The notes: generated by a model not told the origin, from the sequence alone. Positions 40,273 to 63,077 are shown, counted from the stretch's first letter. The stretch: DNA of 64,000 nt from a virus (IMGVR_UViG_3300010392_005355:9611-73610); one strand, 5' to 3'. A program made the numbers and translations.

Positions 40273-40464
40273 CTAGTTTGCTGCATTTGCCGACTCTGGC
40301 TGCGTAGTGATCAGCGACAGGTCTTCATTGAAGGTCTCGATCTCTTCGGCGCGACGGTCGAAGTAATCGGCTGTCAGTTGATCCGTGACCTGGATCGCTG
40401 CCCGAATGCGGGCGAAGCGGGCTTTGAGGTCAGCAGCGCGTTGAGCCTTGTTTGCTTTAGCCAT
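40273..40464 (-). CDS. 63-aa hypothetical protein
   Basis: AGGAG RBS before MAKANK. Confidence 0.7.
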   Translation of the reverse strand: MAKANKAQRAADLKARFARIRAAIQVTDQLTADYFDRRAEEIETFNEDLSLITTQPESANAAN

Positions 40465-40549
40465 GGTATTCTCCTGATTGTCAAAGAACTCCGGGAGGGT
40501 TCCCGGCACCCCAAAACCCGGCCTGATTTCTCAGGTCCGGGCGGTTGGT

Positions 40550-40660
40550 CTATTTTCTGCGCTTCGTTCGCAGTTGTATTTCGTACATTATTGAGCTGAA
40601 GATTGACCCAGCCACTGAGCCGATGATCAGCCCGCAAATCACGCCAAGTTCGTAGTCCAT
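40550..40660 (-). CDS. 36-aa single-TM peptide MDYELGVICGLIIGSVAGSIFSSIMYEIQLRTKRRK
   Basis: Own translation; AAAGGAG RBS; TM helix plus basic tail. Confidence 0.7.
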   Translation of the reverse strand: MDYELGVICGLIIGSVAGSIFSSIMYEIQLRTKRRK

Positions 40661-40739
40661 TTGAATTCTCCTTTTTGGCACCCCAAAACCCCACCGCCAT
40701 GACGCGAAGTGGGGCTGGTTGGGCGAGGGCCTTGGCCCT

Positions 40740-40826
40740 CTATTTCCCGGTTCTGAAGCACTTGCGGCCGAAGTATCTGGGCTTCTCTTCGGTGGGCTCT
40801 TGGGTCGGCGTTTGGTCTTCGTTCAT
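40740..40826 (-). CDS. 28-aa peptide MNEDQTPTQEPTEEKPRYFGRKCFRTGK, matches C-terminus of host protein 50315-50800
   Basis: Own translation; AAAGGAG RBS; first ORF after a TTGACA promoter; hairpin right after stop. Confidence 0.75.
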   Translation of the reverse strand: MNEDQTPTQEPTEEKPRYFGRKCFRTGK

Positions 40827-40848
40827 CGGGGTCTCCTTTGCTTCCGAT

Positions 40849-40903
40849 ACGTGTGATATACGTGTTACCTACGGCATTGTCAACGTGTTATTTGCGTGTT
40901 ACC
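40849..40903 (-). promoter_or_regulatory. Promoter of small-ORF operon with CGTGTTA direct repeats
   Basis: Minus-strand TTGACA (40878-40883) -17 nt- TATATC; CGTGTTA at 40861, 40884, 40895. Confidence 0.75.
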
Positions 40904-40929
40904 GAGAAAAAAGATGCAGAGGAGCCCGC

Positions 40930-41184
40930 ATGGCGAAGAAATCGCGATCACAGGTAACAGCTGAGTATGAGGCCAGGGTCTCAGAGAAGGGGGGCGGGCG
41001 CTTCCCGACTATGACCTTGCAGCCGGACGAAATGGCGGCGTGGGAACGCGCTATGGCGCAGGATACCGGGCCGGATCGTGGCAAGGCGAAGCGAACGTTG
41101 ATGCGCGCATTGGCGGCGCTTGAGCAGCGCAATGAGCCATCGAACGCCGAAATCATCGAGATGTTGAAGGCGCGCCTGAAATGA
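40930..41184 (+). CDS. Small DNA-binding protein (RHH-like), probable regulator of the divergent operon
   Basis: GAGGAG RBS; strand-helix-helix pattern (PTMTLQPDEMAAWE). Confidence 0.6.
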   Translation: MAKKSRSQVTAEYEARVSEKGGGRFPTMTLQPDEMAAWERAMAQDTGPDRGKAKRTLMRALAALEQRNEPSNAEIIEMLKARLK

Positions 41185-41220
41185 CGCGCAAACTGTAGTA
41201 ACTATCGAAGGAGTAGCCGG

Positions 41221-41520
41221 ATGAAAGAGTCGTCAAAATGTCTCCACATGGCAGTCCTGACTTCGCCAGAGACGGCTGCGCGAATGGCCGAAGCCGAGCG
41301 AATCAATAGGTATATGGCCACCGACGATTTCAGCGATGAGGAGGTGGCACGAGTCGATGATCTCGCTCTAACAACGCGCTTGAGCCGCCTTGAGGCGTAC
41401 TATCGTGTGCGGGCGGAGCGCCACATGACGCCTGCGCAAGTTCAGGCTTTCGATGAGTTGACCCGGAAGACGGGGATGAGGCTTGACGATTTTCTAGAGG
41501 TTACGGGCGGCAAACTGTAA
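41221..41520 (+). CDS. Hypothetical protein, last prophage gene
   Basis: AAGGAG RBS, 99 aa. Confidence 0.6.
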   Translation: MKESSKCLHMAVLTSPETAARMAEAERINRYMATDDFSDEEVARVDDLALTTRLSRLEAYYRVRAERHMTPAQVQAFDELTRKTGMRLDDFLEVTGGKL

Positions 41521-41595
41521 TCAGGGCGAGCGATCCGTCCCCGCGAGTGAGGATGTGATCACGTATGGCGCGGGGGAGAACGTCCCGGCAACGTC

Positions 41596-41619
41596 TTGGA
41601 AAAACAGTTGGAAAAACAG
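41596..41619. repeat. Tandem 12-bp repeat, candidate integrase arm-type sites
   Basis: TTGGAAAAACAG x2 plus a degenerate third copy (41622-41633), about 60 bp before the tRNA. Confidence 0.6.
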
Positions 41620-41635
41620 CACCGCAAAAACGGGG

Positions 41636-41664
41636 TTGCGATTGGGGCGGATCACCAGTAGTTA
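41636..41664 (+). promoter_or_regulatory. tRNA promoter
   Basis: TTGCGA -17 nt- TAGTTA. Confidence 0.6.
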
Positions 41665-41676
41665 CTGCACTTCGGC

Positions 41677-41750
41677 GCGGGTATAGCACAATGGTAGTGC
41701 AGCAGCCTTCCAAGCTGAGTATGTCGGTTCGATTCCGTCTACCCGCTCCA
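41677..41750 (+). tRNA. tRNA-Gly(TCC)
   Basis: GCGGGTA/TACCCGC acceptor stem, CTTCCAA anticodon loop, GGTTCGATTCC T-arm, encoded CCA. Confidence 0.97.
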
Positions 41751-41968
41751 AGCCTTTCTCTCTCACATCGATAAGTTTTTCCGCAGGACCATCAGCAGGG
41801 CCTCGATCAGGCCGATGGCGATTCGAGCCCTCGCCTCACCCTCAAGCACGCCGCCCTGCCGGGCGGTTTTTGGGGTGAAGAAAGTGTGAATGAAAGGTTT
41901 TGGAGTGACTTTGAATTATTGGTCCATTTAGGAGTAAAATTAATTCCGCTTCCCGTAAGATAGACGTC

Positions 41969-43792
41969 ATGCGTTTATCGACCATCACCAATGTCGCCTA
42001 TGTCACCACGGTAGCGCTTTCCATGATTGCGGGCGCCGCCATGCTGATGGCCTCCAATTCCATGCGAGCCGAGCGCGCCGCCGTGCAGCAGCGCCATGTG
42101 CTGGACAAGGCCACGTCAGGGCTGGACCGCGAGATATTCTACCAGTCTGAAAAGGCCCGGGAATATGTCATCTCCGGCAATTCGGAATATCTGGAAGACT
42201 TCAAGGCAGGCGTCGTCAATCTGAATGACACGCAGGCCATGCTGAGCCGTGTCACAGATGCGGGGGCGAGCCAGGAAGAATTGTCCACTTTGGTGACGGC
42301 AGTCGACATGGCGAAGACGCTGGTCAACGACCAGCAGCGCGCCATTGAGGCCTTTCAGGCCGGTGACATTGAAACGGCACGCAAGATGCTGTTTAGCGAC
42401 CATTATGAAGGCGAACTGGGCCTGATCGATTCCACCATTCTGCGCTTTCAGAGCCTGCTGGACCAGCGCACACAGGCGGAGGTGGAGGAGTCCATCCGCC
42501 GCTCGCACTTCTGGCGGGTGCTGTCTGAAGTGGTTCTGGCCGTAACGGCCCTGATGTTCCTGTGTGTTCTGTATTTCATCCTGAAGCGCCGTATCCTGCG
42601 CCCGGTGGTCAAGCTGAGCGATGTGGTCACCCGTCTGGCGGCGGAGGATTACACCGTCGAGATGAGTGAATTCCACCAGATGGACGAGATCGGCGACATG
42701 GCCGAGGCGGTGAAGGTCTTCCGCGAAAACGGCCTGGAGCGCCTGCGCCTTGAGAAGAAGCTGGAACGGGATCTGAAGCTGCGCAATCTGCTGAGCCGCA
42801 TGACGCACCGGATGCAGGCGTGTGAGAGCAAGCAGGAGGTGGCCAATGTTGTGCGCCTGTTCCTGCCGGTTATCCTGCCGGGCTATGCGGGCAGGATGTA
42901 CCTGTTTGACGAGAGCGATACCGTCATGCGCCAGGTTTGCGACTGGCTTGAGCCGGTCGGCTCGGCAGCGACATTCGCTCCCGGTGACTGCTGGGCGATC
43001 CGGCGAGGCGCGCCGCATCGTCAGGGCGGGGATCAAACCGACATGCCCTGCCAGCATATGTTCTCGCCGGGCCATGTGGAGGGCGAACTGGAAAACAATG
43101 TCGCCACACTCTGTGTTCCGCTGACAGCGCAGCGCGAGGTGATCGGCCTGTTGTATTGCGAGATCCCGGAAGGCCTGATCAGCATCGAGGAAGAGCACTA
43201 TGTGTTCATGATGGCAGAGAATATCTCCCTGTCGCTGGCCAACATGCATCTGCGTGAGGAGCTGCAAGAGCAGGCCATGGAAGACGCCCTGACGGGCCTG
43301 TCCAATCGCCGCAAGATGGAGCAGCGCCTCGGCACATTATTGTATGATGCGCGCGAAACCGGCCAGCCGGTCAGCTGTATCATGCTGGATGTGGATAATT
43401 TCAAATCCTTCAACGACACATATGGCCACGAAATGGGCGACCGTGTGCTGAAGGAAGTGGCCAATGTGCTGACATCCCATACGCGGGAAGACGGCCTGGC
43501 TTTCCGCTATGGCGGGGAGGAGTTTGTCATCCTGCTGCCAGGCGTCGAGCCGGGCGATGCGGTGCGCCGGGCCGAGAGCATGCGCAAGGCTATTGCTGCG
43601 CTGCACTTCAATTTCAACGACACGCCTGTCGACAAGGTCACCGCCTCTTTCGGGGTCGCAACTTCGCCTAATCACTGTTCTGGCAACAGGCTGATCATGA
43701 CGGCGGATGCGGCGCTGTACGAGTCCAAGGAACAGGGCCGTAACCGCGTTACCAAGGCCCTGCTCAGCGCGAATGAGGGCATGGTGGCGTAA
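41969..43792 (+). CDS. Membrane diguanylate cyclase (periplasmic sensor-HAMP-GAF-GGDEF)
   Basis: Two TMs; DEIGDMA HAMP; DALTGLSNRR, DVDNFK, RYGGEEF. Confidence 0.93.
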   Translation: MRLSTITNVAYVTTVALSMIAGAAMLMASNSMRAERAAVQQRHVLDKATSGLDREIFYQSEKAREYVISGNSEYLEDFKAGVVNLNDTQAMLSRVTDAGASQEELSTLVTAVDMAKTLVNDQQRAIEAFQAGDIETARKMLFSDHYEGELGLIDSTILRFQSLLDQRTQAEVEESIRRSHFWRVLSEVVLAVTALMFLCVLYFILKRRILRPVVKLSDVVTRLAAEDYTVEMSEFHQMDEIGDMAEAVKVFRENGLERLRLEKKLERDLKLRNLLSRMTHRMQACESKQEVANVVRLFLPVILPGYAGRMYLFDESDTVMRQVCDWLEPVGSAATFAPGDCWAIRRGAPHRQGGDQTDMPCQHMFSPGHVEGELENNVATLCVPLTAQREVIGLLYCEIPEGLISIEEEHYVFMMAENISLSLANMHLREELQEQAMEDALTGLSNRRKMEQRLGTLLYDARETGQPVSCIMLDVDNFKSFNDTYGHEMGDRVLKEVANVLTSHTREDGLAFRYGGEEFVILLPGVEPGDAVRRAESMRKAIAALHFNFNDTPVDKVTASFGVATSPNHCSGNRLIMTADAALYESKEQGRNRVTKALLSANEGMVA

Positions 43793-43808
43793 CAGCCCGC
43801 CAGACATG

Positions 43809-43842
43809 AAAACGCCCCCCGAATTCGTCGGAGGGCGCTTTC
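43809..43842. terminator. Bidirectional terminator
   Basis: AAAACGCCCCCCGA…TCGGAGGGCGCTTT between convergent genes. Confidence 0.7.
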
Positions 43843-43869
43843 TGCAAGACTGCGATATCTGAAAGCCGT

Positions 43870-44901
43870 TTACGGACGGTCGTTCAGGCGCGCGGCGGCT
43901 TCGATGTCGACCCAGTCGATAATCTTGAAGTTCTGGTCGACTTCCGATTCCGGATTGGCGTCATCCTGAACGATCATCACGCCTTTCGGGAAACCGGGCA
44001 GAGGCGTGGAATTGACGTCCAGGCCATCGGTATGGGTCACGCCGTCCACGCTGCCATCCGGGCTGGCAACGATGGTGATGACGCCGACTCGGGCATGCGG
44101 AGGTTCCAGATCATAGATGACATAGCGGTCAGCGGCCTGGGCGGAGGCGACGAGATAGCCATAGCCTTCCTCACCCTTCCAGATGCTGATGCCTTCGACA
44201 TCCGCGACAAGACCCTGACGGGCGGCGATCGTATCTACGGAGAGGGCGATGCTCTCATCATTGACGAGATCCAGCTTCCAGATGCCGTGCTCTTCCTCGC
44301 CGACAAAGACCTGGCGGCCATCATCTTCCACGACGCAGCCTTCCAGCTGGCTGTCGAATTTGTAGGTGCGGACCAGCTCTGCATTCAGGCCTTTGGCTTC
44401 GGCATAGGGCAGGGACCAGATCTGGATCGTGCCGTCCTTGTAGGTCGGCATGGCCAGGAAATTGCCATCGATCAGGCCGGCGCAGATGCCGTAGGGCTCA
44501 TCCTTCAGGGTGGGCGTGTCACCGATATGCGTTACGGTCTGCGTCGCCGGATCGATGGAGAACCAGCTGACGGACTTCGTTTCGTCATTGGAGGCAATAG
44601 CAATATTGCCGCGCACATCCACATTGTTGATGCGGCCGGTATCGACGAATTGCGTCTTCTTGCCGGTCAGATCGTAGACATAGAGGCCTTCATCCTTGTT
44701 GGTGCCGAGGATCAGGCTTTTGGAGGCGTCCAGCGGATTGACCCACAGGGCCGGATCATCGGCGGTGTCGCCCCGGGTCGGCATCGGGTCTGTTTCGAAG
44801 GCGGCATAGACGTTTGCCGTCTCGACTTCGTAGATGTCCTGCGCTGGCTCGGTCGCACATGCGGCGACCAGCAGGGCGGCGAGGGGAAGATAGCGTTTCA
44901 T
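43870..44901 (-). CDS. Beta-propeller 3-phytase (lipoprotein)
   Basis: ADDPALW, GRINNVD, EPYGIC, QLEGCV, ADVEG, TDGLD, QNFK; LVAAC lipobox. Confidence 0.93.
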   Translation of the reverse strand: MKRYLPLAALLVAACATEPAQDIYEVETANVYAAFETDPMPTRGDTADDPALWVNPLDASKSLILGTNKDEGLYVYDLTGKKTQFVDTGRINNVDVRGNIAIASNDETKSVSWFSIDPATQTVTHIGDTPTLKDEPYGICAGLIDGNFLAMPTYKDGTIQIWSLPYAEAKGLNAELVRTYKFDSQLEGCVVEDDGRQVFVGEEEHGIWKLDLVNDESIALSVDTIAARQGLVADVEGISIWKGEEGYGYLVASAQAADRYVIYDLEPPHARVGVITIVASPDGSVDGVTHTDGLDVNSTPLPGFPKGVMIVQDDANPESEVDQNFKIIDWVDIEAAARLNDRP

Positions 44902-44992
44902 GACGTGTCAGCTCCTTGAGGAGGGGAAAAGGAAGAGGCCGGGCAAGGGTGTGTCCTGCCCGGCCTCAGAGATCAAGCTCTATCCGAGCGAA

Positions 44993-47791
44993 CTAGTAGG
45001 TGTAGCGGACGCCGAAGACGTAGCGGGAACCGAACTCGTCATACTGGGACAGACGGTTCTTGGAGCCGTGATAGTAGTATTCCGGCTCGTCCGTCAGGTT
45101 CTTGCCTTCGACATAGACCTGCAGATGGTCGTTCACGTCATATTTGGCAGACGCTTCGACGCTCATATGGTCGTCTGTGTAACGGTCGATGCCTGCGCCG
45201 AACAACTCGTCCAGATAAGCAGAGCGGTAGTTGGCAGAGACGCGGATGTCCCACGGGCCCTTGTCGTAGCCGATGGCGACGTTCCAGACGCGGTCATTCT
45301 GCTTCAGCATCGGGACATCGCGGGTCTTGGCGGCGTCTTCCTCATCCTGGACGGAGGTTTCGGAGTCGGCCAGGGTGAGGTTGCCGGAGACCAGCAGGCC
45401 TTCCCAGGCCTCGCCGAGGAAATCGAGCTGCTGGACATAGTTGAACTCAATCCCCTTCACCGTGGCGCTGCCGCCATTGATATAGGTGGTGACTTCTTCC
45501 AGCGAACCCAGCGTTTCAGCATCCAGGAAGGACAGGTCAACCGAGCTTGGCAGCTGGTCGATATCATAGGTCGCCTCGAAGATCGGGTTGGAGATGTCCT
45601 TGTAGAACAGGCCGGCCGACAGCACGGACAATTTCGTCGGATAGTATTCGATGGAAAGATCGAAATTGTTGGCTTCGTACGGATCGAGTGCCGGGTTGCC
45701 GAGCTCTGCCTCGTCGCGGTCTTCATTCAGGGCGATGGTCGGGCGCATTTCGCCAAAGGCAGGGCGCACGATGGAGGCATAATACGCCGCGCGGCCGATG
45801 AGGTTGTCCGCAAAGGCATATTTCAGGTTCAGGCTGGGCAGGAAGTGGGCATATTCATCATCATACTGACGTGTGCCAACATTTGCCGGATCGTCTTCCT
45901 CAGCGAAGATGTTACCCTTGGCGGAGACATCGGTGGCCTCGATACGGGCACCTGCCACAACGGTCAGGTTCTGCATCTGGAACGTACCCATGCCGTAACC
46001 GGCGATGATCATCTCATCGATCGTGTAGTCTTCGGCCAGGCTGTCAAAGTTCGAACCATCCTCATCCAGCTCGTCTGCCGTAAAGGTGCCGCGCAGGGCA
46101 TTAGTCAGTCCTGCAGACGGCCACTGGAACATCGGATTGGCCATGCGCCAGCCGGAGATCTGGGAGTTTGCGGTGATGTAGTCTGTCAGCAGAACGTCGT
46201 CACGCTCATAGATTTTCAGGTTCACATCCCGCACCTTTTCGCGGTCACGCACCTTCACACCCATTTTCCAGGTGACCGGTGTGTTACCCAGGACGGTATC
46301 GTTGGTCAGGTCCAGCTTGTAGGCCCATTCGGTGTCTTCATTGGTGGTAAATTCCCGTTCGAAGGAATCCATCGTGTAGTTGGACGGGTCGAGCAGGAAG
46401 TCATAGCCGGTGCCGGAGAATTTCGGCTTTTGGGGGTCCGAATTATCCCAGACCAGGATGCCGTCACCTTCCAGATCATCAGAGCGGAAGGTCACATCGT
46501 GATTGTTGGAGTCGTCTTCTTCGGCATAGGCGTAGGAGACTTCGTAATCGAACGTCCAGTTGCCAGCATAGGTCTTGCCGCCGAGGGCGTAGGTCTGGAT
46601 GTTGCGAACTTCTTCGCGCTGGCGCACTTCGGCATCGGCCTCGGCATAGTCGAAGCTGAAGCCCGTATCGGTGACGGTCGGGTCTTCTTCGTCCAGGCTG
46701 CGGATTTCGAACTTGTTGCGAACTTCGTCATCCTTGTAGCGATTGTACAGGGTGCGGAGGTAAAGCTCTGTATTCTCTGTGGCCTTGTAGTCCACATTGA
46801 AGACAAGACCGACGCGCTCGCGGGTCAGATCGTACCAGCGCATTTCGTAGTCATCGTCCGGAATGATGGCGCCGACATCTTCGTTGAAGCCCCAGCCGCC
46901 GGTTTCGTTATTGTGGGCCTGGATCTGCAGATCCTGATAGTTGATGGAGGCGGCGACACCCAGTTTTTCGCCGAACACGTTGGAATAGGTCAGCGTGGCT
47001 TTCGGGGAAATCTCTTCGGTGATTTCGTTGTAGGAGCCCTCGACCTTGGCGCGGATGAACTGGCCATCGCGGTCAAAGGCGGAGATGGTTTTCAGATTGA
47101 TCACACCACCGATGGTGTCGGCGTCGACATTCGGGGTCAGGGATTTCTGAACCTCGATACCGTCGAGAAGGTCAGACGGCACACCATCCAGCAGAACGCC
47201 GCGGCGGTCTTCCGGGGAGGGGGTGCGCACGCCGTTGATGGTGGCGGAGATGAGGTCTGTGTTGATGCCGCGGATGGAGACGTAGCGGCCTTCGCCCTGG
47301 TCGTTCTCGATGGACAGGCCCGGCACGCGGGAAAGGCTGTCAGCAACGGTCGTGTCGGGGAAGTTGCCGAGGCCGTCGGAGTCGATCACGTTGATGATGG
47401 CATCGGAGGCGCGCTGCTGGTTGATGGCGCCGGCCTGGGCCGCAGCAGAGCCGACGACCAGAACGTTGTCGAGATAGCGCACATCGCCGCCGAGCACGAT
47501 GTCATAGGTGGAGTCGCCGGAGATGTTCACCGTGTCCGTGACCGTGTCTGCGCCGACATAGGAGATCGAAAGCGTGTAGTCGCCAGCCGGAATGCTGGTG
47601 AAGCGGTATGCGCCAAAACGGTCTGAGGAGGCGCTGCGGCCGAGTTCCTCAATCGTCACAATGGCGCCCTGCAGCGGCGCTTCGCCGGTCGCGTCGGTGA
47701 CAACACCTTTGAGGATGTCGGCGGAAGCAGCCTGGACCAGGGTGGCCGTGGCGGCACCCAGGAGCAATAGCTTGCGGGTGGTTGAAGTCAT
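44993..47791 (-). CDS. TonB-dependent receptor (phytase-associated)
   Basis: Signal peptide; plug region DSLSRVPGLSIENDQGEGRYVSIRG; C-terminal GVRYTY. Confidence 0.95.
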   Translation of the reverse strand: MTSTTRKLLLLGAATATLVQAASADILKGVVTDATGEAPLQGAIVTIEELGRSASSDRFGAYRFTSIPAGDYTLSISYVGADTVTDTVNISGDSTYDIVLGGDVRYLDNVLVVGSAAAQAGAINQQRASDAIINVIDSDGLGNFPDTTVADSLSRVPGLSIENDQGEGRYVSIRGINTDLISATINGVRTPSPEDRRGVLLDGVPSDLLDGIEVQKSLTPNVDADTIGGVINLKTISAFDRDGQFIRAKVEGSYNEITEEISPKATLTYSNVFGEKLGVAASINYQDLQIQAHNNETGGWGFNEDVGAIIPDDDYEMRWYDLTRERVGLVFNVDYKATENTELYLRTLYNRYKDDEVRNKFEIRSLDEEDPTVTDTGFSFDYAEADAEVRQREEVRNIQTYALGGKTYAGNWTFDYEVSYAYAEEDDSNNHDVTFRSDDLEGDGILVWDNSDPQKPKFSGTGYDFLLDPSNYTMDSFEREFTTNEDTEWAYKLDLTNDTVLGNTPVTWKMGVKVRDREKVRDVNLKIYERDDVLLTDYITANSQISGWRMANPMFQWPSAGLTNALRGTFTADELDEDGSNFDSLAEDYTIDEMIIAGYGMGTFQMQNLTVVAGARIEATDVSAKGNIFAEEDDPANVGTRQYDDEYAHFLPSLNLKYAFADNLIGRAAYYASIVRPAFGEMRPTIALNEDRDEAELGNPALDPYEANNFDLSIEYYPTKLSVLSAGLFYKDISNPIFEATYDIDQLPSSVDLSFLDAETLGSLEEVTTYINGGSATVKGIEFNYVQQLDFLGEAWEGLLVSGNLTLADSETSVQDEEDAAKTRDVPMLKQNDRVWNVAIGYDKGPWDIRVSANYRSAYLDELFGAGIDRYTDDHMSVEASAKYDVNDHLQVYVEGKNLTDEPEYYYHGSKNRLSQYDEFGSRYVFGVRYTY

Positions 47792-47837
47792 GGGAGGAAG
47801 TCCTTCTCTCTGGATGGCGGCCCGTTCCCACGGCTCC

Positions 47838-47877
47838 GTTACGCCTGAATGACAGATGCGTAATGTTTTTGTGACGC
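47838..47877 (-). promoter_or_regulatory. Pho box array (PhoB)
   Basis: Minus-strand GTCAC, ATTAC, (CT)GTCAT, GTAAC at exact 11-bp period upstream of the TBDR-phytase operon. Confidence 0.75.
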
Positions 47878-48069
47878 TCCCCGGTTTCATTAGGTTTTTG
47901 GGCCAAGCCCCGGTCATGCGGGGAGAAATTCGTGCTTTTCCTGCAACACATCTGTGTCCGGATGGGCGGCCGCGCGGGAGAATCATACGGGATTCATGAA
48001 GTCTACCCACGCGCGAATCCGATGGGGACGGGCATGGGGGAAACTGCCCTCATGAGACGGGAGGGACGC

Positions 48070-48888
48070 ATGTCACATCATCCGAAGAGGGAACGTTTGA
48101 AGCGCCAGATCCGGCTCTGCTGGCTGCTCGGCTGGAGCGTTACGCGCATTGCGGCGCAGGTGGGGCTGCACCGCACAAGCGTCTACCGCCTGATGCGCGA
48201 ACATGAGCTGAACGAGCCGGAAAAGCCGCTGGAGCGCCTGCAGCTGGCCATGGATGAAGCGCAGGACCAGGCGACGGAACAGATGCTGGCCGCCGCCGCG
48301 GCGGGCGAGGACATCGCGCCGAGAGTGACGCAGCTGGTGCGGGTCAGCACGGAAGTGCGCCAGCTGGAAATGGCAGGAATCAAGGTCGGGGGGATCGCCC
48401 ATGAACGGGAGGCCGCAAATCAAGCCGCAGACGAGGAAGAGGACATCTATGCCTTCCTCTCCGATGAAGGGGCCCAGACGGGCGGCCATGAGAGGAAAGG
48501 GCGACCAGCTGATGGATCCGGACTTCCGCCGAAAGGTGCGCCGGGCCTGCGAGACGGGGGACTGGAGCGACCTGCCGCCGAAGACGGGCGAACTGGTGGC
48601 GGAGAATCCGTGGTTGCGCCTGGCCCGCGATACACAGGTTCCACCGCGGGCGGGCTGGCGGACATGTCTGTTCATGGGCGGACGCGGCGCTGGCAAGACA
48701 CGGGCCGGGGCGGAATGGCTGCGCTGGAGCCTGCTGCACGGCGGGCGGAGGCGTGCGGCGCTGGTGGGCCCGGCCCTGCACGATGTGCGCGAAGTGATGA
48801 TCGACGGACCGAGCGGCCTGAAATGGATCGAGCCCAGGCAGGATCTTCGCCCGGTCTATCATGCGAGCCGGCGTATCCTGCGCTTTGA
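48070..48888 (+). CDS. GTA small terminase candidate (N-terminal HTH); 3' end overlaps terL
   Basis: GWSVTRIAAQVGLHRTSVYR HTH; first gene of cluster. Confidence 0.55.
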   Translation: MSHHPKRERLKRQIRLCWLLGWSVTRIAAQVGLHRTSVYRLMREHELNEPEKPLERLQLAMDEAQDQATEQMLAAAAAGEDIAPRVTQLVRVSTEVRQLEMAGIKVGGIAHEREAANQAADEEEDIYAFLSDEGAQTGGHERKGRPADGSGLPPKGAPGLRDGGLERPAAEDGRTGGGESVVAPGPRYTGSTAGGLADMSVHGRTRRWQDTGRGGMAALEPAARRAEACGAGGPGPARCARSDDRRTERPEMDRAQAGSSPGLSCEPAYPAL

Positions 48889-49810
48889 CAATGGCGCAGA
48901 GGCGCATGTCTTCTCCGCCGAAGACCCGGACAGTCTGCGCGGCCCGCAATTCGATGTCGCCTGGTGTGACGAGATTGCCGCCTGGGCGAAGGGAGAGGCA
49001 GTGTGGGACACGCTGCAGATGGGTCTGCGCCTGGGGGCGGCTCCGCGCTGCTTTGCGTCCACGACGCCGCGGGCGGTGGGCCTGATGCGCCGCCTGCTGT
49101 CTGCGGGAGAGGATGAGGCCGTGCATGTGCTGCGCGCCGGGACGCAGGAGAATGCCGGCAATCTGTCACCGGATTTCCTGCGCGCCATGAAGGCCGCCTA
49201 TGGCGATAGCCAGCTGGCTCGGCAGGAGCTGAACGGCGAATTCATGGAAGACCCCGAAGGCGCCTTGTTCCGTAGGGGGATGATTGACGGCGCCCGTGTC
49301 GATGCCCCGCCCATGATGGAGGATGTGATCGTCGCGGTCGACCCGCCGGCGACCAGCGGTCCGGCGGCGGATGCGTGCGGCATCATCGCGGCGGGCGTGC
49401 GCAGCGGCCATGCCTATGTGCTGGCGGATGCGTCTGCGCCGGGGCTGAAGCCGCTGGACTGGGCCCGGCGCGCGGTGGCGGTTTGCCGCGAGACCGGCGC
49501 GCGGGAGATTATCGCGGAGGCCAATCAGGGCGGCGAAATGGTGCGGCAGATTTTGGAGAGCGCCGGGGCGGGCGTGCCGGTGCGGCTGGTGCATGCGCGG
49601 CTGGGCAAGCGGGCGCGGGCGGCCCCGGTGGCAACATTGTACGCACAGGGACGGGTCAGCCATGTCGGCCTGCTGCCCACGCTGGAAGACCAGATGTGCC
49701 GGTTTGGCGCGGAAGGGTTCCGCGGCTCACCGGACCGCGTGGACGCGCTGGTCTGGGCGGTGTGGGCGTTGGTGCTGGAAGGTGCCGGGCCATGGGTGCG
49801 GGTGTTGTGA
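48512..49810 (+). CDS. terL: GTA large terminase (start uncertain)
   Basis: GGRGAGKTRAGAEW, LRGPQFD…WCDE, STTPR, VAVDPP, SPDRVDALVWA. Confidence 0.95.
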   Translation: MDPDFRRKVRRACETGDWSDLPPKTGELVAENPWLRLARDTQVPPRAGWRTCLFMGGRGAGKTRAGAEWLRWSLLHGGRRRAALVGPALHDVREVMIDGPSGLKWIEPRQDLRPVYHASRRILRFDNGAEAHVFSAEDPDSLRGPQFDVAWCDEIAAWAKGEAVWDTLQMGLRLGAAPRCFASTTPRAVGLMRRLLSAGEDEAVHVLRAGTQENAGNLSPDFLRAMKAAYGDSQLARQELNGEFMEDPEGALFRRGMIDGARVDAPPMMEDVIVAVDPPATSGPAADACGIIAAGVRSGHAYVLADASAPGLKPLDWARRAVAVCRETGAREIIAEANQGGEMVRQILESAGAGVPVRLVHARLGKRARAAPVATLYAQGRVSHVGLLPTLEDQMCRFGAEGFRGSPDRVDALVWAVWALVLEGAGPWVRVL

Positions 49811-49826
49811 GGGGGGAGTCCGCAGG

Positions 49827-49926
49827 AACCCCCTCTGTCTCCCCCTTTTCAAGGGGGAGGACGCAGATAGCAGGCGCCTTGCTTGGGGACACTCTCCCCC
49901 CTGCAAGGGGGGAGTTGGAGGGGGTT
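49827..49926. repeat. Double-hairpin palindromic (REP/CIR-like) element
   Basis: CTCCCCCTT…AAGGGGGAG and CTCCCCCCTGCAAGGGGGGAG inside AACCCCCTC/GAGGGGGTT; related copy at 53322-53422. Confidence 0.8.
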
Positions 49927-49945
49927 AAGCGGAGGTTCGGGAAGG

Positions 49946-50311
49946 TTAGTCTTGCTGGCGCAGGCGCGACTCCACCTCTCGCTTGATCGTGTCAGCCACG
50001 GCATCCAGAGAGTCGTCTATATAGGAGACAGGGATGCGCAGGACGGTGATGCCCTTGCTGGCGAGGAAGGCATCGCGGCGGGCGTCTGCGGCCTCATCAT
50101 GCCAGTCGCCATCGACCTCGACGGCGAGCTTCAGGGAGGGGCAGTAATAATCGAGGAAATAGGGGCCGACAGGATGTTGGCGGCGGAAGGAAGCGCCCAT
50201 TTGCCCGCGGCTGAGTACAGGCCAAAGACGGCGCTCTGTCTGAGTGGCGGATTGGCGAAGTGCACGGGCGCGGCGTGTCTGTTCAGGCTTGCGCGAGAAC
50301 GGCGCCGCCAT
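49946..50311 (-). CDS. DUF559 (Vsr-like) endonuclease
   Basis: ARALRQSAT…FRRQHPVGPYFLDYYC…LAVEVDG…RDAFL…GITVLR. Confidence 0.92.
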   Translation of the reverse strand: MAAPFSRKPEQTRRARALRQSATQTERRLWPVLSRGQMGASFRRQHPVGPYFLDYYCPSLKLAVEVDGDWHDEAADARRDAFLASKGITVLRIPVSYIDDSLDAVADTIKREVESRLRQQD

Positions 50312-50314
50312 GCA

Positions 50315-50800
50315 TCAGCCCCCCGTGCGGAAGGCTTTGCGGCCGAAATAGGCGTTTTTGGGGGGCGTGGGTTTGTCGTCGTCGGAGGCCGTTTCCTCCG
50401 TGGACGTTTCTTCTGCTGCGGTTTCCGCCTCTGCCGGTTTGGCTTCCGCTGCGGATTCTAGCGGGGCGGGCATGTTGCCGGTCATCAGGCCGCGAATCCA
50501 GGCGCAGGCGGCGCCGGCGGTGGAGACTTCGATGTCCGGGACGGTCTTGTCCATGCGGCGGGCGAGCTGGCGCGCCTGGTGGGCGGTCAGGGATTTCAGC
50601 ACCTTGTCGAAGATCTCCGGCCCGACTGTTTCGCGGAGGGCCTTCATGTCTTCCGTGGTCTGACCCGCGGAGACCATCAGTCTCTTGACGAGAATTTCTG
50701 TGGCGGCGGAGAAGTCTTTCTCCCCCAGCTTGCCGAAGCGGTCTTTCTGGCCGAGCAGGGCGCCGAGGGCGTTGGCGCTGTCCTTGGGGGCGTCGGTCAT
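50315..50800 (-). CDS. ParA-partner hypothetical protein (helical domain, acidic linker, basic C-terminal motif)
   Basis: ATGA-coupled to parA; ends YFGRKAFRTGG. Confidence 0.8.
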   Translation of the reverse strand: MTDAPKDSANALGALLGQKDRFGKLGEKDFSAATEILVKRLMVSAGQTTEDMKALRETVGPEIFDKVLKSLTAHQARQLARRMDKTVPDIEVSTAGAACAWIRGLMTGNMPAPLESAAEAKPAEAETAAEETSTEETASDDDKPTPPKNAYFGRKAFRTGG

Positions 50801-51681
50801 TGGATTTTCTCCCGCACTTCCTTGAGAAGGCTTTCCACAACGCCGAGCGCTTCGCCTGGCCATTTTGCCTTCAGGGTCGGTTCCGGGCCGAGCTCGATCG
50901 GGTTTGTGGCAAAGCCCTGTTTCATCGGCACAACGGTCTTGAACATGGTGAATTCGGTTTCCTTGGCGTTCGCCGCCTCGCGCATGGCATTGAGGACCAC
51001 TTGCTGGTGCGGTGTGCCATCATAGCGAGTCGCCAGAACGCAGGGGAGGCTGTCAATGTCCCGCCCGCGCAGATTGCGCATGATGTCGCCTGTGAAGAGG
51101 TCGAGGCCGAGTGTGGACATGAAGTCCGGAATGGTGGGCACGATGATCAGGTGGCTGGCGGCCAGGACGGTTTCGGTCATCACGGAAATGCCGGGCGGGC
51201 AGTCACAGATGATGACGTCATAATCGGCTTTCAGCTTTTCAAAGTCATCGCGCATGCGGCGGCCGACCTGGCCCTGCAGGGCCTCCATGGAATAGCCCTT
51301 GGCGGTCAGCTCATAGATCAGCTCGCGCTCTGTCTTGCGCAGGCGCGGTGAGGAGGGGATCAGGTCCAGCTCCAGCGGCTTGCCATTGTAGGAGACATCG
51401 GACGCGTCGGTGACGATGAAGTCTGAGAGGCGCTTGTGCTCACCGGCGAAGAAATTCTCCAGCAGCCAGTCAGAAATCGTGACGTATTCATTGATCGCGC
51501 GGAACAGATGTTCGTCGCCCTCATGGCCGAAAACGAGCAGCGAGGCGTTGGCCTGCGTATCCAGATCCACGACCAGCGTGCGGAAGCCATTGGCGGCAAA
51601 TGCCTCTGCAAGGCTGACACAAGTGGTGGTTTTGCCGACCCCGCCCTTGGAGTTGGCAATGGAAATGACACGTGCTGACAT
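50797..51681 (-). CDS. parA: ParA/Soj-family ATPase, no adjacent parB
   Basis: KGGVGKTT deviant Walker A, VDLDTQANAS, DCPPG. Confidence 0.92.
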   Translation of the reverse strand: MSARVISIANSKGGVGKTTTCVSLAEAFAANGFRTLVVDLDTQANASLLVFGHEGDEHLFRAINEYVTISDWLLENFFAGEHKRLSDFIVTDASDVSYNGKPLELDLIPSSPRLRKTERELIYELTAKGYSMEALQGQVGRRMRDDFEKLKADYDVIICDCPPGISVMTETVLAASHLIIVPTIPDFMSTLGLDLFTGDIMRNLRGRDIDSLPCVLATRYDGTPHQQVVLNAMREAANAKETEFTMFKTVVPMKQGFATNPIELGPEPTLKAKWPGEALGVVESLLKEVREKIQ

Positions 51682-51898
51682 TCTGTTAGCTCCCTGGCGC
51701 CTGATAGTTCGGCGAAAAAGCAGATTTGCGCCGGTCTGGCTATGCCTGCACGGGAATAAAATACAGGGAAAAATTCGGCGCTTTCCCTGATGTTTTAGCG
51801 GTAGGCCGCTGTTTTTGGAAGGGTTTTCCAAACTGAATCCGATGGGGATGTCAGGGATTTAATTTCTGCTCATCGAACGAAACAGAGCGGAGCCCTTC

Positions 51899-53065
51899 AT
51901 GAAACCCATCTGGCCTTTCCGATTGCCCCAGCGCGAGGCGAAAGCGGCGGTGCCTCTGGTCGCGCTATCAGAAATCGGGACGGCCAGATGGGGCGCCCGC
52001 GATGGCGCGGCGTTGACGCGGGACGGGTATCTGCAGAATGCCGTGGCCTATCGCGCGGTGCGCATGGTGGCCGAGGCGGCGGCGTCCGTTCCGCTGGTGA
52101 CGGCGCACGATGGCGCGGCGCGGCTGATCCGCAGGCCGCAGCCGGACGGCGTGGCGGCGGAACTGTTCGAGGCGGTCTATTCCCAGCTTCAGCTGACCGG
52201 CAATGCCTTTCTGGAAGGCGTCTGCCTGGAGGCTGTGGGGGCGGCGGCCAGTGGGGCGGCCAGTGGGGCGGATGGGGCGGGGGTGTCTGCGCTGTATGCG
52301 CTGGCCCCGTCCGCCATGCGGCCGCTGAAGGATGCGCGCGGCTGGGTGGAGGCCTGGGCCGTGAAGGAACGCCATGGCGAGCGGGTGATCCGCCGCGATG
52401 CAGAGACGGGCTGGAGCCCGGTGCTGCACCTGAAACTGTTCAACCCGGTGAATGACACGTTGGGCCTGGCCCCGCTGGGCGCGGCGCGGCGGGCGCTGGA
52501 CCTGCACAATGCGAGCGCGGACTGGGCGAAGGCGCTGATCGATAATTCGGCCAAGCCCTCCGGCGCGCTGGTCTATGGCGGGCATGGGCGGATGCCGCCG
52601 GACCAGTTCGAGGCGCTGAAGACGGAGCTGGAGAGCATGTATTCCGGCGCCAGCAATGCGGGGCGGCCCCTGCTGCTGGAGGGCGGGTTGGAGTGGCGGC
52701 CGATGTCTCTGTCGCCAGCGGAGATGGATTTTCTGGAGGCGCGGCATGGCGCGGCGCGGGAGATTGCGCTGGCGCTGGGCGTGCCGCCCATGCTGTTGGG
52801 GATTCCGGGGGATAATACGTATTCGAACTATAAGGAGGCGAACCTCGCCTTCTGGCGGATGACGATTTTGCCGCTGGTGCAGAAATTCGCGGGCGCGCTG
52901 TCGGCCTGGCTGGATGTGCCATTCGGGCAGGATGTGGAGATCCGCGCAGACATTGACCGCGTGCCGGCCCTGTCGGCCGAGAGGGATGCGCTGTGGGCGC
53001 GGCTGGAAGGCGCGAGCTTTGCGACCGCAGAGGAGAAGCGACGTCTGGCGGGGCTGCAATCATGA
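51899..53065 (+). CDS. GTA portal protein (HK97 family)
   Basis: GYLQNAVAYRAV…VLHLKLFNP…LGIPGDNTYSNYKEAN. Confidence 0.95.
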   Translation: MKPIWPFRLPQREAKAAVPLVALSEIGTARWGARDGAALTRDGYLQNAVAYRAVRMVAEAAASVPLVTAHDGAARLIRRPQPDGVAAELFEAVYSQLQLTGNAFLEGVCLEAVGAAASGAASGADGAGVSALYALAPSAMRPLKDARGWVEAWAVKERHGERVIRRDAETGWSPVLHLKLFNPVNDTLGLAPLGAARRALDLHNASADWAKALIDNSAKPSGALVYGGHGRMPPDQFEALKTELESMYSGASNAGRPLLLEGGLEWRPMSLSPAEMDFLEARHGAAREIALALGVPPMLLGIPGDNTYSNYKEANLAFWRMTILPLVQKFAGALSAWLDVPFGQDVEIRADIDRVPALSAERDALWARLEGASFATAEEKRRLAGLQS

Positions 53066-62400: not shown

Positions 62401-63077
62401 TCGGGCGGCTGACGGCGCCGTGCGAGGCCGGGCCAGTCGGGCGATGGGACCGGGCAAATGCGCTGGAACTGGTCTGCCCCGGCGGGGAGTTTGCGAGCCT
62501 GCCGGAACTACAGGTGCTGGGCGGCGGCAATGCCGCGCTGCTGGAGACCGGTCAGGGCTGGGAACTGATCCAGTTTGAGAAGGCTGCGCTGGTGGGAGAG
62601 GACATTTGGCAGCTGTCCGGCCTGTTGAGAGGGCAGCGCGGCAGTGTGCCGGGCGCGGCAGAGGCCGGGGCGCGTCTGGTGCTGCTGGACAGCGCTGTGG
62701 TGCAGGCGAGCGTTGGGCCTGAGGAAATCGGGCTGGACCTGATCTGGCAGGCGGCGGGCGATGATGAGGCCGAGACGCTGTTCTTTGAGGACTATGCCGG
62801 GAGGCCTTGGCCGGTGGCGCATCTGAAAGCCAATGGCGACGAGCTCAGCTGGACGCGGCGCGGGGCCGATCTGCCGGAAAGCTGGGCCTTGCCTGAAGGG
62901 GCAAATAGCGGAAATTTCGCGGTGCAGGCCGATACGGGAAGCGGATTTTCCGGCGGAATCACTGTCTCTGAAGCTCACGCGGCCGTGCCATCTGGCGCTG
63001 TGGCGGTGCGGGTTGCGGCGATTGGCGCAGATGGCCGATATGGCCCATGGGTTTCAATACGGCCCGGGACTTCCTAA
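59448..63077 (+). CDS. GTA megatron (TIM-barrel baseplate protein)
   Basis: PAYRGTAY…FGNRLPQLSFEV…SYAADWTEY…WDGRPFPAWP…GHWLNGR. Confidence 0.94.
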   Translation: MAQIVFSTAGRVIGQQALPQGLNLLGRQVSGGSLGRALGNLAGQAVSDYFAPAQEGPRIKTLPVMEAREGAGIPSVYGRMRIGAQVIWAARFRETKTTRRASSKGGSRMTEYDYSVSFAVALGEGPVLAVRRAWANGEPFDLSGVVHRLYAGDETQTPDPLIEVIEGAGKAPAYRGTAYIVFEDLPLEAFGNRLPQLSFEVERVPPGGDEAGLAETVTGVNMIPASGEFVYATEIVRERTLPGQERALNAWSGEARADFLVALDQMEAALPRAKHVALTVGWFGTNVMAGACEIHPGVETKERLTRPYAWEVAGISRGDAYLISRDEDGNANYGGTPADRAVVSAIREMVARGMKVTVSPFLFMDTPGFPWRGRIGVSADGTAAARSEINAFVNGANGFRRFILHHAQLAAEAGGVEAFLIGSEMCGLTRVRDETGAFPFVEALVSLAAEVKALLPGVKVSYAADWTEYGAYVPGDGSGDVLFPLDTLWASGNVDFVGVDWYPPMGDWRDGEAHLDALAGYGAADDPDYLAMQITGGEAYDWYYASPADRDTQIRTPITDGAYGEPWIYRQKDIAGWAGHSHHERLGGVRQAVPTGWVPGAKPVRLSEIGFAAVDKGGNAPNVFYDPKSSESALPPYSSGARDEVFQRRALAAVLPYWEASPLVEAAHVWAWDGRPFPAWPLRDDVWGDGDNWARGHWLNGRSGLTTLAAVVADICARGGVEGVSTSGLSGILEGYTLEGVHSVRAALEALRSAYGFECMERDGRLVFRMAGDGPVVEVETAALVEGGLQRTRKLLDKAPARLRLTHVDLEADYQPGMAEARLAGGDPRLVQDVELPLALGRTRAGAIAQALLEAASSRESASCGLPLSGLALEPGDGVRVDGGPVWRITEISDRGMVRTLTCREDVSGATPVRAGEIGTLPPPAPVFGNVDLVVMDAPGIPQADGMGPLVAAWADPWPGEVVVKAGLEAGAMTERARLTRPSVIGRLTAPCEAGPVGRWDRANALELVCPGGEFASLPELQVLGGGNAALLETGQGWELIQFEKAALVGEDIWQLSGLLRGQRGSVPGAAEAGARLVLLDSAVVQASVGPEEIGLDLIWQAAGDDEAETLFFEDYAGRPWPVAHLKANGDELSWTRRGADLPESWALPEGANSGNFAVQADTGSGFSGGITVSEAHAAVPSGAVAVRVAAIGADGRYGPWVSIRPGTS

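What the first reader, a model, noticed from the sequence alone, without database searches (positions are those of the whole stretch)
40740..50800. Prophage 28-aa peptide mimics the C-terminal motif of the host ParA-partner protein inside the GTA cluster
Seen: a minus-strand mini-ORF at 40740-40826, missed by the ORF track, has an AAAGGAG RBS and is the first ORF after a TTGACA promoter. It encodes MNEDQTPTQEPTEEKPR-YFGRKCFRTGK*. The host gene 50315-50800, translationally coupled to a parA with no parB, ends EETASDDDKPTPPKNA-YFGRKAFRTGG*. Nine of the last 11 residues are identical, both end at the same position relative to the stop, and both follow an acidic Pro/Thr linker. The codons differ synonymously (TAC/TAT, AAG/AAA, AGA/CGC, ACC/ACG), so the match is kept at protein level and is not a recent DNA duplication. 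Known: ParA/MinD ATPases are stimulated by short basic peptides on flexible tails of their partners (ParB, ParG, MinE, McdB). Inference: the phage expresses only the interaction motif, as a decoy or deregulator of a host ParA-partner system (antiphage, DNA positioning or GTA-related), or as a competitor for whatever binds that tail. I know of no description of this.
Basis: partly seen in the sequence, partly recalled or inferred. Interest (0 to 1): 0.92.

Follow-up and report, generated by a model that had tools for sequence, protein, structure and literature searches.

The report
Phage mini-gene copies host protein tail
A group of related Hyphomonas phages carries a tiny gene whose 28-33 residue product is little more than a copy of the conserved C-terminal motif of a host protein that is paired with a ParA-type ATPase, which looks like molecular mimicry whose target is still unproven.

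Summary
The minus-strand ORF 40740-40826 encodes MNEDQTPTQEPTEEKPRYFGRKCFRTGK. Its last 11 residues match 9 of 11 the C-terminus of the 161-aa protein at 50315-50800, which overlaps parA by ATGA. That tail is invariant in 42 of 42 aligned Hyphomonas homologues, although the linker before it is hypervariable. In 596 Gb of genomes the motif occurs almost only in this family.

Five more variants of the mini-ORF turned up in related phages or prophages, one of them a complete 48.6-kb phage. All keep YFGRKCFRT behind a diverged acidic linker. All share a ribosome-binding site, a positionally aligned promoter-like element and a terminator-like hairpin, next to a small divergent regulator. So this is a genuine stand-alone phage gene.

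The mechanism is not shown. Binding to ParA is inferred by analogy with basic ParA-activating peptides, and the one complex prediction gave no verdict. The parA-partner pair is highly conserved and usually lies between GTA terminase and portal, but not always, and it matches no known defence system. The cassette sits in the accessory end of the prophage, not the immunity region. My reading is a phage microprotein that competes for the tail's receptor, most plausibly ParA. My five literature searches found no description of this.

The parts
40740..40826 (-). Phage mini-ORF, 28 codons plus stop: an acidic Pro/Thr/Glu linker followed by the tail YFGRKCFRTGK
   Evidence: Five further variants with the same tail occur in related phages. 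The tail codons differ only synonymously among the 6 variants, but 4 of the 6 were found with a pattern that demands this tail.
40833..40839 (-). Shine-Dalgarno AAAGGAG, 6 nt before the ATG. It is part of a conserved 5' leader (ATCGGAAG...GGAG) shared by the variants.
   Evidence: alignment of six cassettes.
40855..40883 (-). Putative sigma-70-like promoter: TTGACA, 17 nt, TATATC. It is overlapped by TAACACG-type repeats that look like operators.
   Evidence: TTGnnn and TAnAnn elements align at the same distance from the leader in the other cassettes. The generic scan did not call it. Inference only.
40685..40716 (-). GC-rich hairpin followed by TTTT, terminator-like, directly after the mini-ORF
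   Evidence: Consensus fold of six variants: 11 pairs, 3 of them with compensatory changes.
40930..41184 (+). Divergently transcribed 84-aa gene, probably the cassette's DNA-binding regulator
   Evidence: The other cassettes have a small divergent gene at the same place. By my reading these are ribbon-helix-helix-like in L076, L080, L057 and L087, and helix-turn-helix-like in L059. No profile hit.
50315..50800 (-). Host partner gene, 161 aa: helical domain 1-110, disordered acidic linker, tail YFGRKAFRTGG
   Evidence: No Pfam, NCBIfam or PADLOC family.
50318..50350 (-). Codons for the conserved C-terminal tail of the partner
   Evidence: Y151, F152, G153, R154, F157 and R158 are invariant in 42 of 42 sequences.
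50797..51681 (-). parA-like ATPase gene, 294 aa, Walker A SKGGVGKT, ATGA overlap with the partner gene
   Evidence: It is adjacent to the partner in 47 of 47 loci.
49946..50311 (-). DUF559 (Vsr-like endonuclease fold) gene downstream of the partner. It is a variable add-on, not part of the conserved pair.
   Evidence: Matches to it occur in only 5 of the 47 other loci, and two of those five are only short partial matches.
48401..49810 (+). GTA-type large terminase flanking the pair
51899..53065 (+). GTA-type portal, divergent from parA
   Evidence: GTA_TIM tail protein further right at 59448-63077.

Best explanation
**What it is.** The mini-ORF is a genuine, stand-alone phage gene. It is a moron-like cassette made of a regulated promoter, a ribosome-binding site, a 28-33 codon ORF and a terminator-like hairpin. 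Its only recognisable content is a copy of the C-terminal short linear motif of the Hyphomonas ParA-partner protein.

**Likely origin (inferred).** It was probably captured once from the 3' end of a partner gene of the YFGRKSFRTGN type. It has since diversified in the linker while the tail stayed fixed.

**Most likely mechanism (inferred, not shown).**
- In the host, the partner's folded N-terminal domain holds a cargo or a DNA site.
- Its basic-aromatic tail, on a flexible acidic linker, docks on the cognate ParA-like ATPase. This would parallel the basic peptides of ParB, ParG, MinE and McdB.
- The free phage peptive has the tail but no cargo domain. It would occupy the same site and uncouple ParA from partner-bound cargo, either as a blocker or as an untethered weak activator that strips ParA from its matrix.
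- The prophage would thereby disable or retune whatever this ParA module does.
For: **Shown**
- The tail match is exact in position and 9 of 11 in sequence. There were 0 chance hits in 100 shuffles.
- The host tail is a conserved motif behind a hypervariable linker. The model has pLDDT under 50 for residues 112-146 and 148-150.
- In host genomes the motif is essentially private to this family. 38 of 41 strict-pattern hits in genome contigs are partner genes. In the 262 family genomes, 84 have a match to the looser pattern, nearly always a single one per genome within the run of consecutive genomes I take to be Hyphomonas. Of the 14 extra hits I checked, 2 are distant partner homologues and none is another mini-ORF.
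- Six peptide variants in 9 loci keep YFGRKCFRT while the linkers diverge.
  - L057 was found by DNA similarity, not by the motif.
  - One carrier is a complete phage with terminal repeats.
- The leader, ribosome-binding site and hairpin are conserved across cassettes.
- The partner is always next to the ParA gene, in 47 of 47 loci, and the two genes overlap as ATGA here. The same pairing holds in two distant family members.
- Neither phage encodes a ParA of its own, so any ParA target is the host's.

**From the literature (passages read)**
- Partner proteins engage ParA/MinD ATPases through a positively charged disordered terminal peptide (PMC10241942).
- A short peptide suffices to bind and stimulate ParA, but far less well than the dimeric partner (PMC12462528). 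That is what a competitive free peptide would need.
Against: - No evidence here shows that the tail touches ParA.
- Known ParA/MinD partner peptides are N-terminal. This one is C-terminal.
- The function of the ParA-partner pair is unknown, so the benefit to the phage is speculative.
- The pair looks like housekeeping rather than defence. ParA is 79-100% identical across Hyphomonas, and PADLOC gives only weak partial P-loop hits.
- Its GTA location is common but not universal.
- A close relative of the prophage, in G117, lacks the cassette although that host has the partner gene. The peptide is therefore dispensable for this phage group.
- Four of the six variants were found with a pattern that requires the tail, so the complete absence of non-synonymous change is partly by construction.
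- There are no expression data.
- The promoter is inferred from alignment only, and the generic scan did not call it.
Confidence: 0.42

Rival explanations
1. The peptide is still a mimic, but the receptor of the tail is not ParA. The tail could be a docking or recognition signal for another host factor: a protease or adaptor reading a C-terminal tag, a polar hub, DNA, the membrane, or a GTA or phage head protein such as terminase or portal. The phage peptide would then compete for that factor.
For: - All the evidence for mimicry applies equally here.
- Nothing ties the tail specifically to ParA.
- The folded N-terminal domain, not the tail, could be the ParA-binding part.
- The pair usually lies between terminase and portal: 30 loci have portal adjacent and 14 have terminase adjacent.
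- Known ParA-binding peptides are N-terminal.
Against: - No other host protein carries the tail. A general hub, degron or membrane signal would be expected on several proteins.
- The only invariant genomic companion of the tail-bearing protein is ParA, in 47 of 47 loci.
- The pair also occurs away from GTA genes.
Confidence: 0.27
2. The mini-ORF is a cis-acting leader peptide. Its translation would modulate the hairpin that follows and hence read-through into the downstream membrane-protein gene. The peptide itself would have no function in trans.
For: - The ORF sits between a regulated promoter and a terminator-like hairpin, upstream of further genes on the same strand.
- In the G117 relative, the same promoter region runs straight into the membrane-protein gene, without the ORF or the hairpin.
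- In L076, L080 and L075 the hairpin starts about 8-10 nt after the stop codon.
Against: - It does not explain why the peptide ends in the exact conserved tail of a 161-aa host protein.
- The distance from stop codon to hairpin ranges from about 8 to about 30 nt among variants.
- No alternative anti-terminator pairing stands out. The fold of the whole transcript has a z-score of -1.36.
- The linker sequence is free to vary while the last residues are fixed.
Confidence: 0.08
3. The mini-ORF is a functionless remnant of a partner-gene 3' end picked up by illegitimate recombination, kept by chance in a few closely related phages.
For: - The tail-coding DNA is closest to partner genes of other Hyphomonas lineages: 29 of 32 nt to L011 and L027, against 23 of 30 to the resident host gene. 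That fits capture.
- The cassette is missing from one related prophage.
- Only 9 loci are known.
Against: - The carriers have diverged. Flanking proteins are 56-58% identical between the window and the complete phage, and the peptide linkers are barely alignable.
- Yet every variant keeps an ATG with a ribosome-binding site, an open frame, the tail at the very C-terminus and a hairpin.
- Homology to partner genes does not extend beyond the tail codons, so only the functional motif has been retained.
Confidence: 0.1

Closest known systems
ParA/MinD-activating peptides of partner proteins (ParB N-terminus, ParG tail, MinE, McdB, PomX)
   Same: A short motif of hydrophobic and positively charged residues on a disordered terminal extension of a small partner protein, encoded right after the ATPase gene. 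A free synthetic peptide can bind and stimulate ParA (passages of PMC12462528 and PMC10241942).
   Different: Those motifs are N-terminal; here the motif is at the extreme C-terminus behind an acidic linker. The partner has no ParB, ribbon-helix-helix or other recognisable family. Binding is untested here.
Viral short-linear-motif mimicry and dominant-negative microproteins (known mainly from eukaryotic viruses, plants and animals; recalled, plus the search listing)
   Same: A parasite- or regulator-encoded product carries only the interaction motif of a larger host protein, and so can titrate the motif's receptor.
   Different: Here the mimic is a free-standing 28-33 residue phage gene product with nothing but a linker and the motif. 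The host is a bacterium and the mimicked protein belongs to a ParA-type system. My five literature searches showed no phage example of this kind.
Anti-CRISPR/anti-defence loci with an Aca-type regulator (recalled)
   Same: A very small phage gene with a strong ribosome-binding site, next to a small DNA-binding regulator gene. The regulator's type differs between otherwise homologous loci. The cassette lies in an accessory region and is present or absent among relatives.
   Different: The regulator is divergent rather than co-transcribed. No profile match confirms the regulator folds. The presumed target is not a recognised defence system.
Plasmid/prophage type I partition cassettes (parA followed by a small centromere-binding protein gene)
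   Same: The gene order parA then small partner with translational coupling. The ParA's best named relatives are RepA/SopA-type partition ATPases, though far below their cut-offs.
   Different: The pair is chromosomal, fixed in place and conserved across a bacterial family. No repeat array resembling a centromere was found nearby. The partner fold is unassigned.

Membership tests
ParA/MinD (deviant Walker A) ATPases - for the gene at 50797-51681 | Deviant Walker A with signature lysine (KGGxGK[ST]) and a profile match to the family | tested here: met
   SKGGVGKT lies near the N-terminus. Pfam AAA_31 E=1.6e-33 and CbiA E=7.2e-18. PHROG 164 ParA-like E=3.4e-48. It falls below the cut-offs of every named NCBIfam equivalog (RepA, SopA, MinD and others), so the subfamily is unnamed.
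ParB/centromere-binding proteins - for the partner at 50315-50800 | ParB/Srx domain, or a ribbon-helix-helix or helix-turn-helix DNA-binding fold recognisable by profile or structure | tested here: inconclusive
   No Pfam, NCBIfam or PADLOC hit. The model is an all-helical domain, residues 1-110. Foldseek gave no hit at E<=0.001. VIA-align's best Z was 5.7, with weak TrpR- and TetR-like rows at Z 4-5, within the noise for helical bundles.
ParA-activating partner peptide | Short hydrophobic-plus-basic motif on a disordered terminal extension of the protein encoded next to the ATPase | tested here: met
   The tail YFGRK[AS]FR is invariant. The linker is disordered. The partner is adjacent to ParA in 47 of 47 loci. 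Caveat: the motif is C-terminal, whereas described cases are N-terminal.
ParA-activating partner peptide | Binds the ATPase dimer and stimulates ATP hydrolysis | not testable with these tools
   This needs a binding and ATPase assay. See Tried and rejected for the one prediction attempted.
Known anti-phage defence systems (PADLOC) - for parA, partner and DUF559 | Profile match of the component proteins to a catalogued system | tested here: not met
   ParA gives only partial P-loop matches to PDC-M28B (E=5.5e-8 over residues 53-150) and mad8. The partner gives none. DUF559 gives weak nuclease-fold hits. The library dates from 2023, so newer systems are not covered.
Transcription-attenuation leader peptide | Mutually exclusive terminator and anti-terminator structures coupled to translation of the leader | tested here: inconclusive
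   The hairpin is conserved, but no competing structure stands out (z -1.36), and the spacing from stop codon to hairpin varies.
Acr/Aca-like anti-defence locus | Small effector gene plus an adjacent helix-turn-helix or ribbon-helix-helix autoregulator controlling its promoter | tested here: inconclusive
   A small divergent gene and palindromic or repeated operator-like sequences lie at every cassette with enough flank. I judged the regulator fold types by eye only. The window's regulator has no profile hit.

The most novel reading that the evidence does not exclude
Temperate Hyphomonas phages make a microprotein that is a free copy of a ParA-activating tail. With it they switch off, or hijack, a previously unrecognised and highly conserved ParA-partner positioning module that is usually embedded in the gene-transfer-agent head cluster. 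This would be the first viral mimic of a ParA/MinD partner peptide. It would also be the first ParA partner known to act through a C-terminal motif. It would imply a conflict between prophages and this host module (GTA production, or an unknown ParA-positioned cargo).
Probability: 0.3. Interest if true: 0.9.

Novelty: new variant of a known kind. Interest (0 to 1): 0.8.

Why it matters
If the peptide works as read, three things follow.
- It gives phage biology a bacterial counterpart of the motif mimicry used by eukaryotic viruses: a gene reduced to a linker plus one host interaction motif.
- It flags an uncharacterised ParA-partner pair, conserved across Hyphomonadaceae and usually wedged between GTA terminase and portal, as something phages care about. 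That makes its function experimentally approachable.
- It would show that ParA-type ATPases can be addressed through a C-terminal tail.

It also hands over a ready-made tool. An 11-residue natural peptide, with natural variants (Ala or Ser in hosts, Cys in phages), can be used to probe or perturb the system. Even if ParA is not the receptor, the peptide is a bait for finding what the tail binds.

Tried and rejected
**Attempts that gave nothing usable**
- Complex prediction of a ParA dimer with ATP and partner residues 122-161: no verdict, scores 0.16 and 0.01 against a mark of 0.32. This is evidence neither way. The phage peptide itself (28 aa) is below the tool's 30-residue advice and was not sent.
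- RNA evidence: no RNA holder listed among 15 runs.
- Fold of the partner: Foldseek against the PDB found nothing at E<=0.001. VIA-align wide gave a best Z of 5.7, which is noise level for helical bundles. The Atlas returned only unnamed clusters.
- Short-protein search with the tail region found no candidates. Gene callers rarely report ORFs under 30 codons.
- Distant partner relatives (P0119-P0145) have other basic tails and no useful Pfam family or names. Their context could not be examined.
- Looking for related phages motif-blind:
  - The 84-aa regulator gave only three weak 39% hits.
  - The 140-aa neighbour gave none in viral contigs.
  - The hairpin pattern gave only L059.
  - The same 140-aa protein across 262 family genomes gave G002, G117 and a remote G091.
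- A centromere-like repeat array around parA was not found.
- Literature: searches turned up no paper on a ParA inside a GTA cluster or on a phage mimic of a ParA partner. I read only search listings, plus 'find' passages of PMC7200025, PMC10241942 and PMC12462528. Supplements were not opened.

**Readings rejected**
- That the cassette lies in the immunity region: rejected, because the CI-like repressor is at 3244-3897.
- That the 108-aa ORF 40374-40700 is a gene: rejected. It spans two short ORFs and hairpins.
- That the match is a recent DNA duplication of the resident gene: rejected. Identity is 23 of 30 nt, with no homology beyond the tail.
- That the peptide serves a phage-encoded ParA: rejected, because neither phage has one.

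Full report
**1.

The minus-strand ORF at 40826..40740 translates to MNEDQTPTQEPTEEKPRYFGRKCFRTGK. AAAGGAG lies 6 nt before the ATG. A TTGACA-17 nt-TATATC element lies upstream, although the generic promoter scan did not call it.

The host gene really starts at M22 of the long ORF, giving 50800..50315 and 161 aa, identical to database protein P0004. Its ATG overlaps the parA stop as ATGA. It ends KNAYFGRKAFRTGG.

Nine of the last eleven residues match the phage peptide, and both sequences end at the stop. The back-translated pattern for YFGRKxFRTG hits the window exactly twice, and none of 100 shuffles gave a hit.

**2. The host tail is a conserved linear motif private to one protein family**

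A homology search found 84 relatives, all Hyphomonas or unnamed.
- 81 of the 84 end in YFG[RW][KR][AS]FR. The three exceptions (P0030, P0076, P0087) diverge before the C-terminus and look truncated or frameshifted.
- In an alignment of 42 of these, Y151, F152, G153, R154, F157 and R158 are invariant. The 40 residues before them are an unalignable Pro/Glu/Thr/Ala-rich linker.
- The structure model gives a confident helical domain (residues 1-110) and a disordered stretch (pLDDT under 50 for 112-146 and 148-150).
- A profile search of 1.8 billion representatives found 61 relatives. Nearer ones keep Y[FLIV]GRK[AS]FR tails; the most distant have other basic tails.

Scans for the motif itself gave the same picture.
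- All 9 viral-contig hits are partner homologues.
- 38 of 41 genome-contig hits are partner homologues. One of the rest is a 13-codon frame, and the other two did not encode the motif in my scan.
- Across 262 genomes of the family, a looser pattern matched 84 genomes. Within the run of consecutive genomes I take to be Hyphomonas, nearly every genome has exactly one match. The reversed-pattern control matched at a lower rate, scattered across the genomes.
- Of 14 extra hits inspected, 2 are distant partner homologues, 1 (L070) did not match my scan, and the other 11 lie in frames that do not look coding. None is another mini-ORF.

**3. The ParA-partner pair**

ParA (294 aa, SKGGVGKT) is a generic ParA/MinD-family ATPase, below the cut-offs of all named subfamilies.
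- It is adjacent to the partner in 47 of 47 loci.
- It is strikingly conserved: 32 distinct Hyphomonas sequences are all 294 aa and 79-100% identical. Homologues at about 60% identity are named Henriciella or Hyphomonadaceae. The partner is only 41-87% identical.

In this window the pair, plus a DUF559 nuclease-fold gene, lies between GTA-type terminase and portal. The rest of the GTA cluster follows to the right.

Across the 47 loci:
- Portal is adjacent in 30.
- Terminase is adjacent in 14.
- Matches to DUF559 occur in only 5, two of them only short partial matches.
- Nine have at least 1.4 kb beyond parA but no portal.
- Eight are cut too short to tell.

Of the four flanks I annotated, L013 and L016 hold a DnaJ-like gene with two-component or c-di-GMP genes, L028 holds a TPR protein, and the one ORF scanned in L012 gave no Pfam hit. 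Two distant family members also have the pair next to terminase.

So the GTA address is frequent and old but not obligatory. The partner matches no family or solved fold. PADLOC gives no system. I found no centromere-like repeats. The pair's function is unknown. Its conservation argues for a housekeeping or GTA-linked role rather than a typical defence island (inference).

**4. The phage gene is real and conserved**

Five further variants were found.
- A DNA search of five related genomes found a second mini-ORF in G002, a close relative whose ParA is 100% identical. It reads MMTDQKETEQQEPEQQTNPYFGRKCFRTS and sits in a syntenic prophage region.
- Pattern scans for the Cys-type tail then found four more:
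  - MTMTDSKTAEHQPDHEHEKEAPKYFGRKCFRTS, in the IMG/VR record of L059 and in two metagenome contigs of about 2 Mb;
  - MNEDQTPTETEEKPTNPYFGRKCFRTGK, in L076 and L077;
  - MKEDQTPTETEEKPTNPYFGRKCFRTGK, in L080;
  - a variant in L075 ending KNPYFGRKCFRTGR.

The L059 record is a complete 48.6-kb phage with terminal repeats. It shares a 98% identical CI-like repressor and many other proteins with the window's prophage.

Aligning the six cassettes shows the following:
- a variable operator region;
- aligned TTGnnn and TAnAnn elements;
- a conserved leader ATCGGAAG...GGAG;
- the ORF;
- a GC-rich hairpin followed by a T-run, with 11 consensus pairs, 3 of them compensatory.

Each cassette with enough flank has a small divergent gene. 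By my reading these are ribbon-helix-helix-like or helix-turn-helix-like, but there is no profile support.

In the 27 bases encoding YFGRKCFRT there are 7 variable sites, all synonymous. Four of the six variants were found with a pattern that demands this peptide, so only the window-L057 pair is an unbiased comparison. In that pair the tail is identical with one synonymous change, and the linkers are barely alignable.

A motif-blind search with a neighbouring phage protein found one more close relative, in G117. It lacks the ORF and the hairpin: the start codon region runs straight into the segment that normally follows the hairpin. The cassette is therefore a discrete accessory module.

Only G002 among the 262 family genomes has the Cys-type tail.

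**5. Origin**

The tail-coding DNA of the window's peptide is closer to partner genes of other Hyphomonas lineages (29 of 32 nt to L011 and L027, of the YFGRKSFRTGN type) than to the resident gene (23 of 30). The two amino-acid differences from that type are single-base changes (read). Homology does not extend past the tail.

A single capture of a partner 3' end, followed by retention of only the motif, is the simplest reading (inference). All six phage variants have Cys where hosts have Ala or Ser. This may be a founder effect or an adaptation.

**6. Position in the phage**

The cassette lies at the right end of the prophage, beside tRNA-Gly(UCC) at 41677-41750. It is far from the CI-like repressor at 3244-3897. 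In the complete phage it lies about 0.9 kb from the right end of the record as deposited.

It is a moron-like unit. Whether it is expressed in the lysogen, on induction, or early in infection is unknown.

**7. Mechanism**

What is shown:
- The phage product is essentially a linker plus the host motif.
- The motif is private to a protein that is always paired with one ParA.
- Neither phage has its own ParA.

What is inferred: the tail is the ParA-contacting peptide, and the free peptide competes with it. The analogy is explicit in the literature passages I read.
- Partners use positively charged disordered termini (PMC10241942).
- A short peptive alone binds and stimulates ParA, but much more weakly than the dimeric partner (PMC12462528).

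The C-terminal position is a departure from those cases.

Rivals:
- A different receptor for the tail is a serious rival.
- A cis-acting leader peptide and a dead remnant are less likely, for the reasons given in the rival entries.

**8. Comparison and novelty**

The closest concepts are ParA/MinD partner peptides, viral linear-motif mimicry and microproteins, and Acr/Aca-style small-gene loci. It can be filed as a member of none of them. My five literature searches found no description of a phage mimic of a ParA partner or of a ParA pair in a GTA cluster. I read search listings and passages only, and supplements were closed.

I rate it a new variant of a known kind (mimicry by a microprotein).

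Noticed in passing
window 40549-40659 (-): A second mini-ORF of 36 codons, with its own AAAGGAG, follows the peptide cassette. It encodes a hydrophobic helix followed by a basic end (MDYELGVICGLIIGSVAGSIFSSIMYEIQLRTKRRK). It is flanked on both sides by the motif GGTTTTGGGGTGCC and is absent from the other five cassettes. It looks like an inserted small membrane-peptide gene.
   Followed up: partly
L012, L013, L016, L023, L027, L028, L031, L049, L050: In these nine loci the parA-partner pair has no portal within at least 1.4 kb. L013 and L016 have a divergent DnaJ-like gene plus two-component or GGDEF-EAL genes instead, L028 a TPR protein, and the one ORF scanned in L012 gave no Pfam hit. The pair is therefore not tied to the GTA cluster in every lineage.
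   Followed up: partly
L087 about 2880-3060 (G117:C2): A close relative of the prophage keeps the divergent regulator, the operator region and the downstream membrane-protein gene. It lacks the mini-ORF and its hairpin. The junction lies right after an ATG in the position of the peptide's start codon, which suggests a deletion.
   Followed up: partly
window 49805-49926: Nested inverted and direct repeats (TCTCCCCC...GGGGGAG units; 33-nt arms, 82% complementary) lie between the terminase stop and the DUF559 gene. They resemble REP or terminator elements.
   Followed up: no
window 51764-51789 (-): A palindrome, CAGGGAAA-N10-TTTCCCTG, lies in the parA-portal intergenic region. It is a candidate operator for the divergent parA and portal promoters. 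Its conservation was not checked.
   Followed up: no
window 41677-41750; L057 19106-19179; L087 3681-3754: The window's prophage ends beside tRNA-Gly(UCC), with the tRNA's 5' end facing the phage. The relatives in G002 and G117 abut tRNA-Gly(CCC) in the canonical orientation. The integration sites therefore differ.
   Followed up: partly
L012, L023, L031, L032, L034: Records titled Acidobacteria, Sulfopaludibacter or Rhodobacterales carry parA-partner loci that are 81-83% identical in ParA to the window's. Mis-binned contigs are the likely explanation.
   Followed up: no
window 49946-50311 (-): The DUF559 (Vsr-like nuclease fold) gene starts 4 nt after the partner's stop. Matches to it occur in only 5 of the 47 other loci, two of them only short partial matches. 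It looks like a selfish or accessory insertion rather than part of the module.
   Followed up: partly
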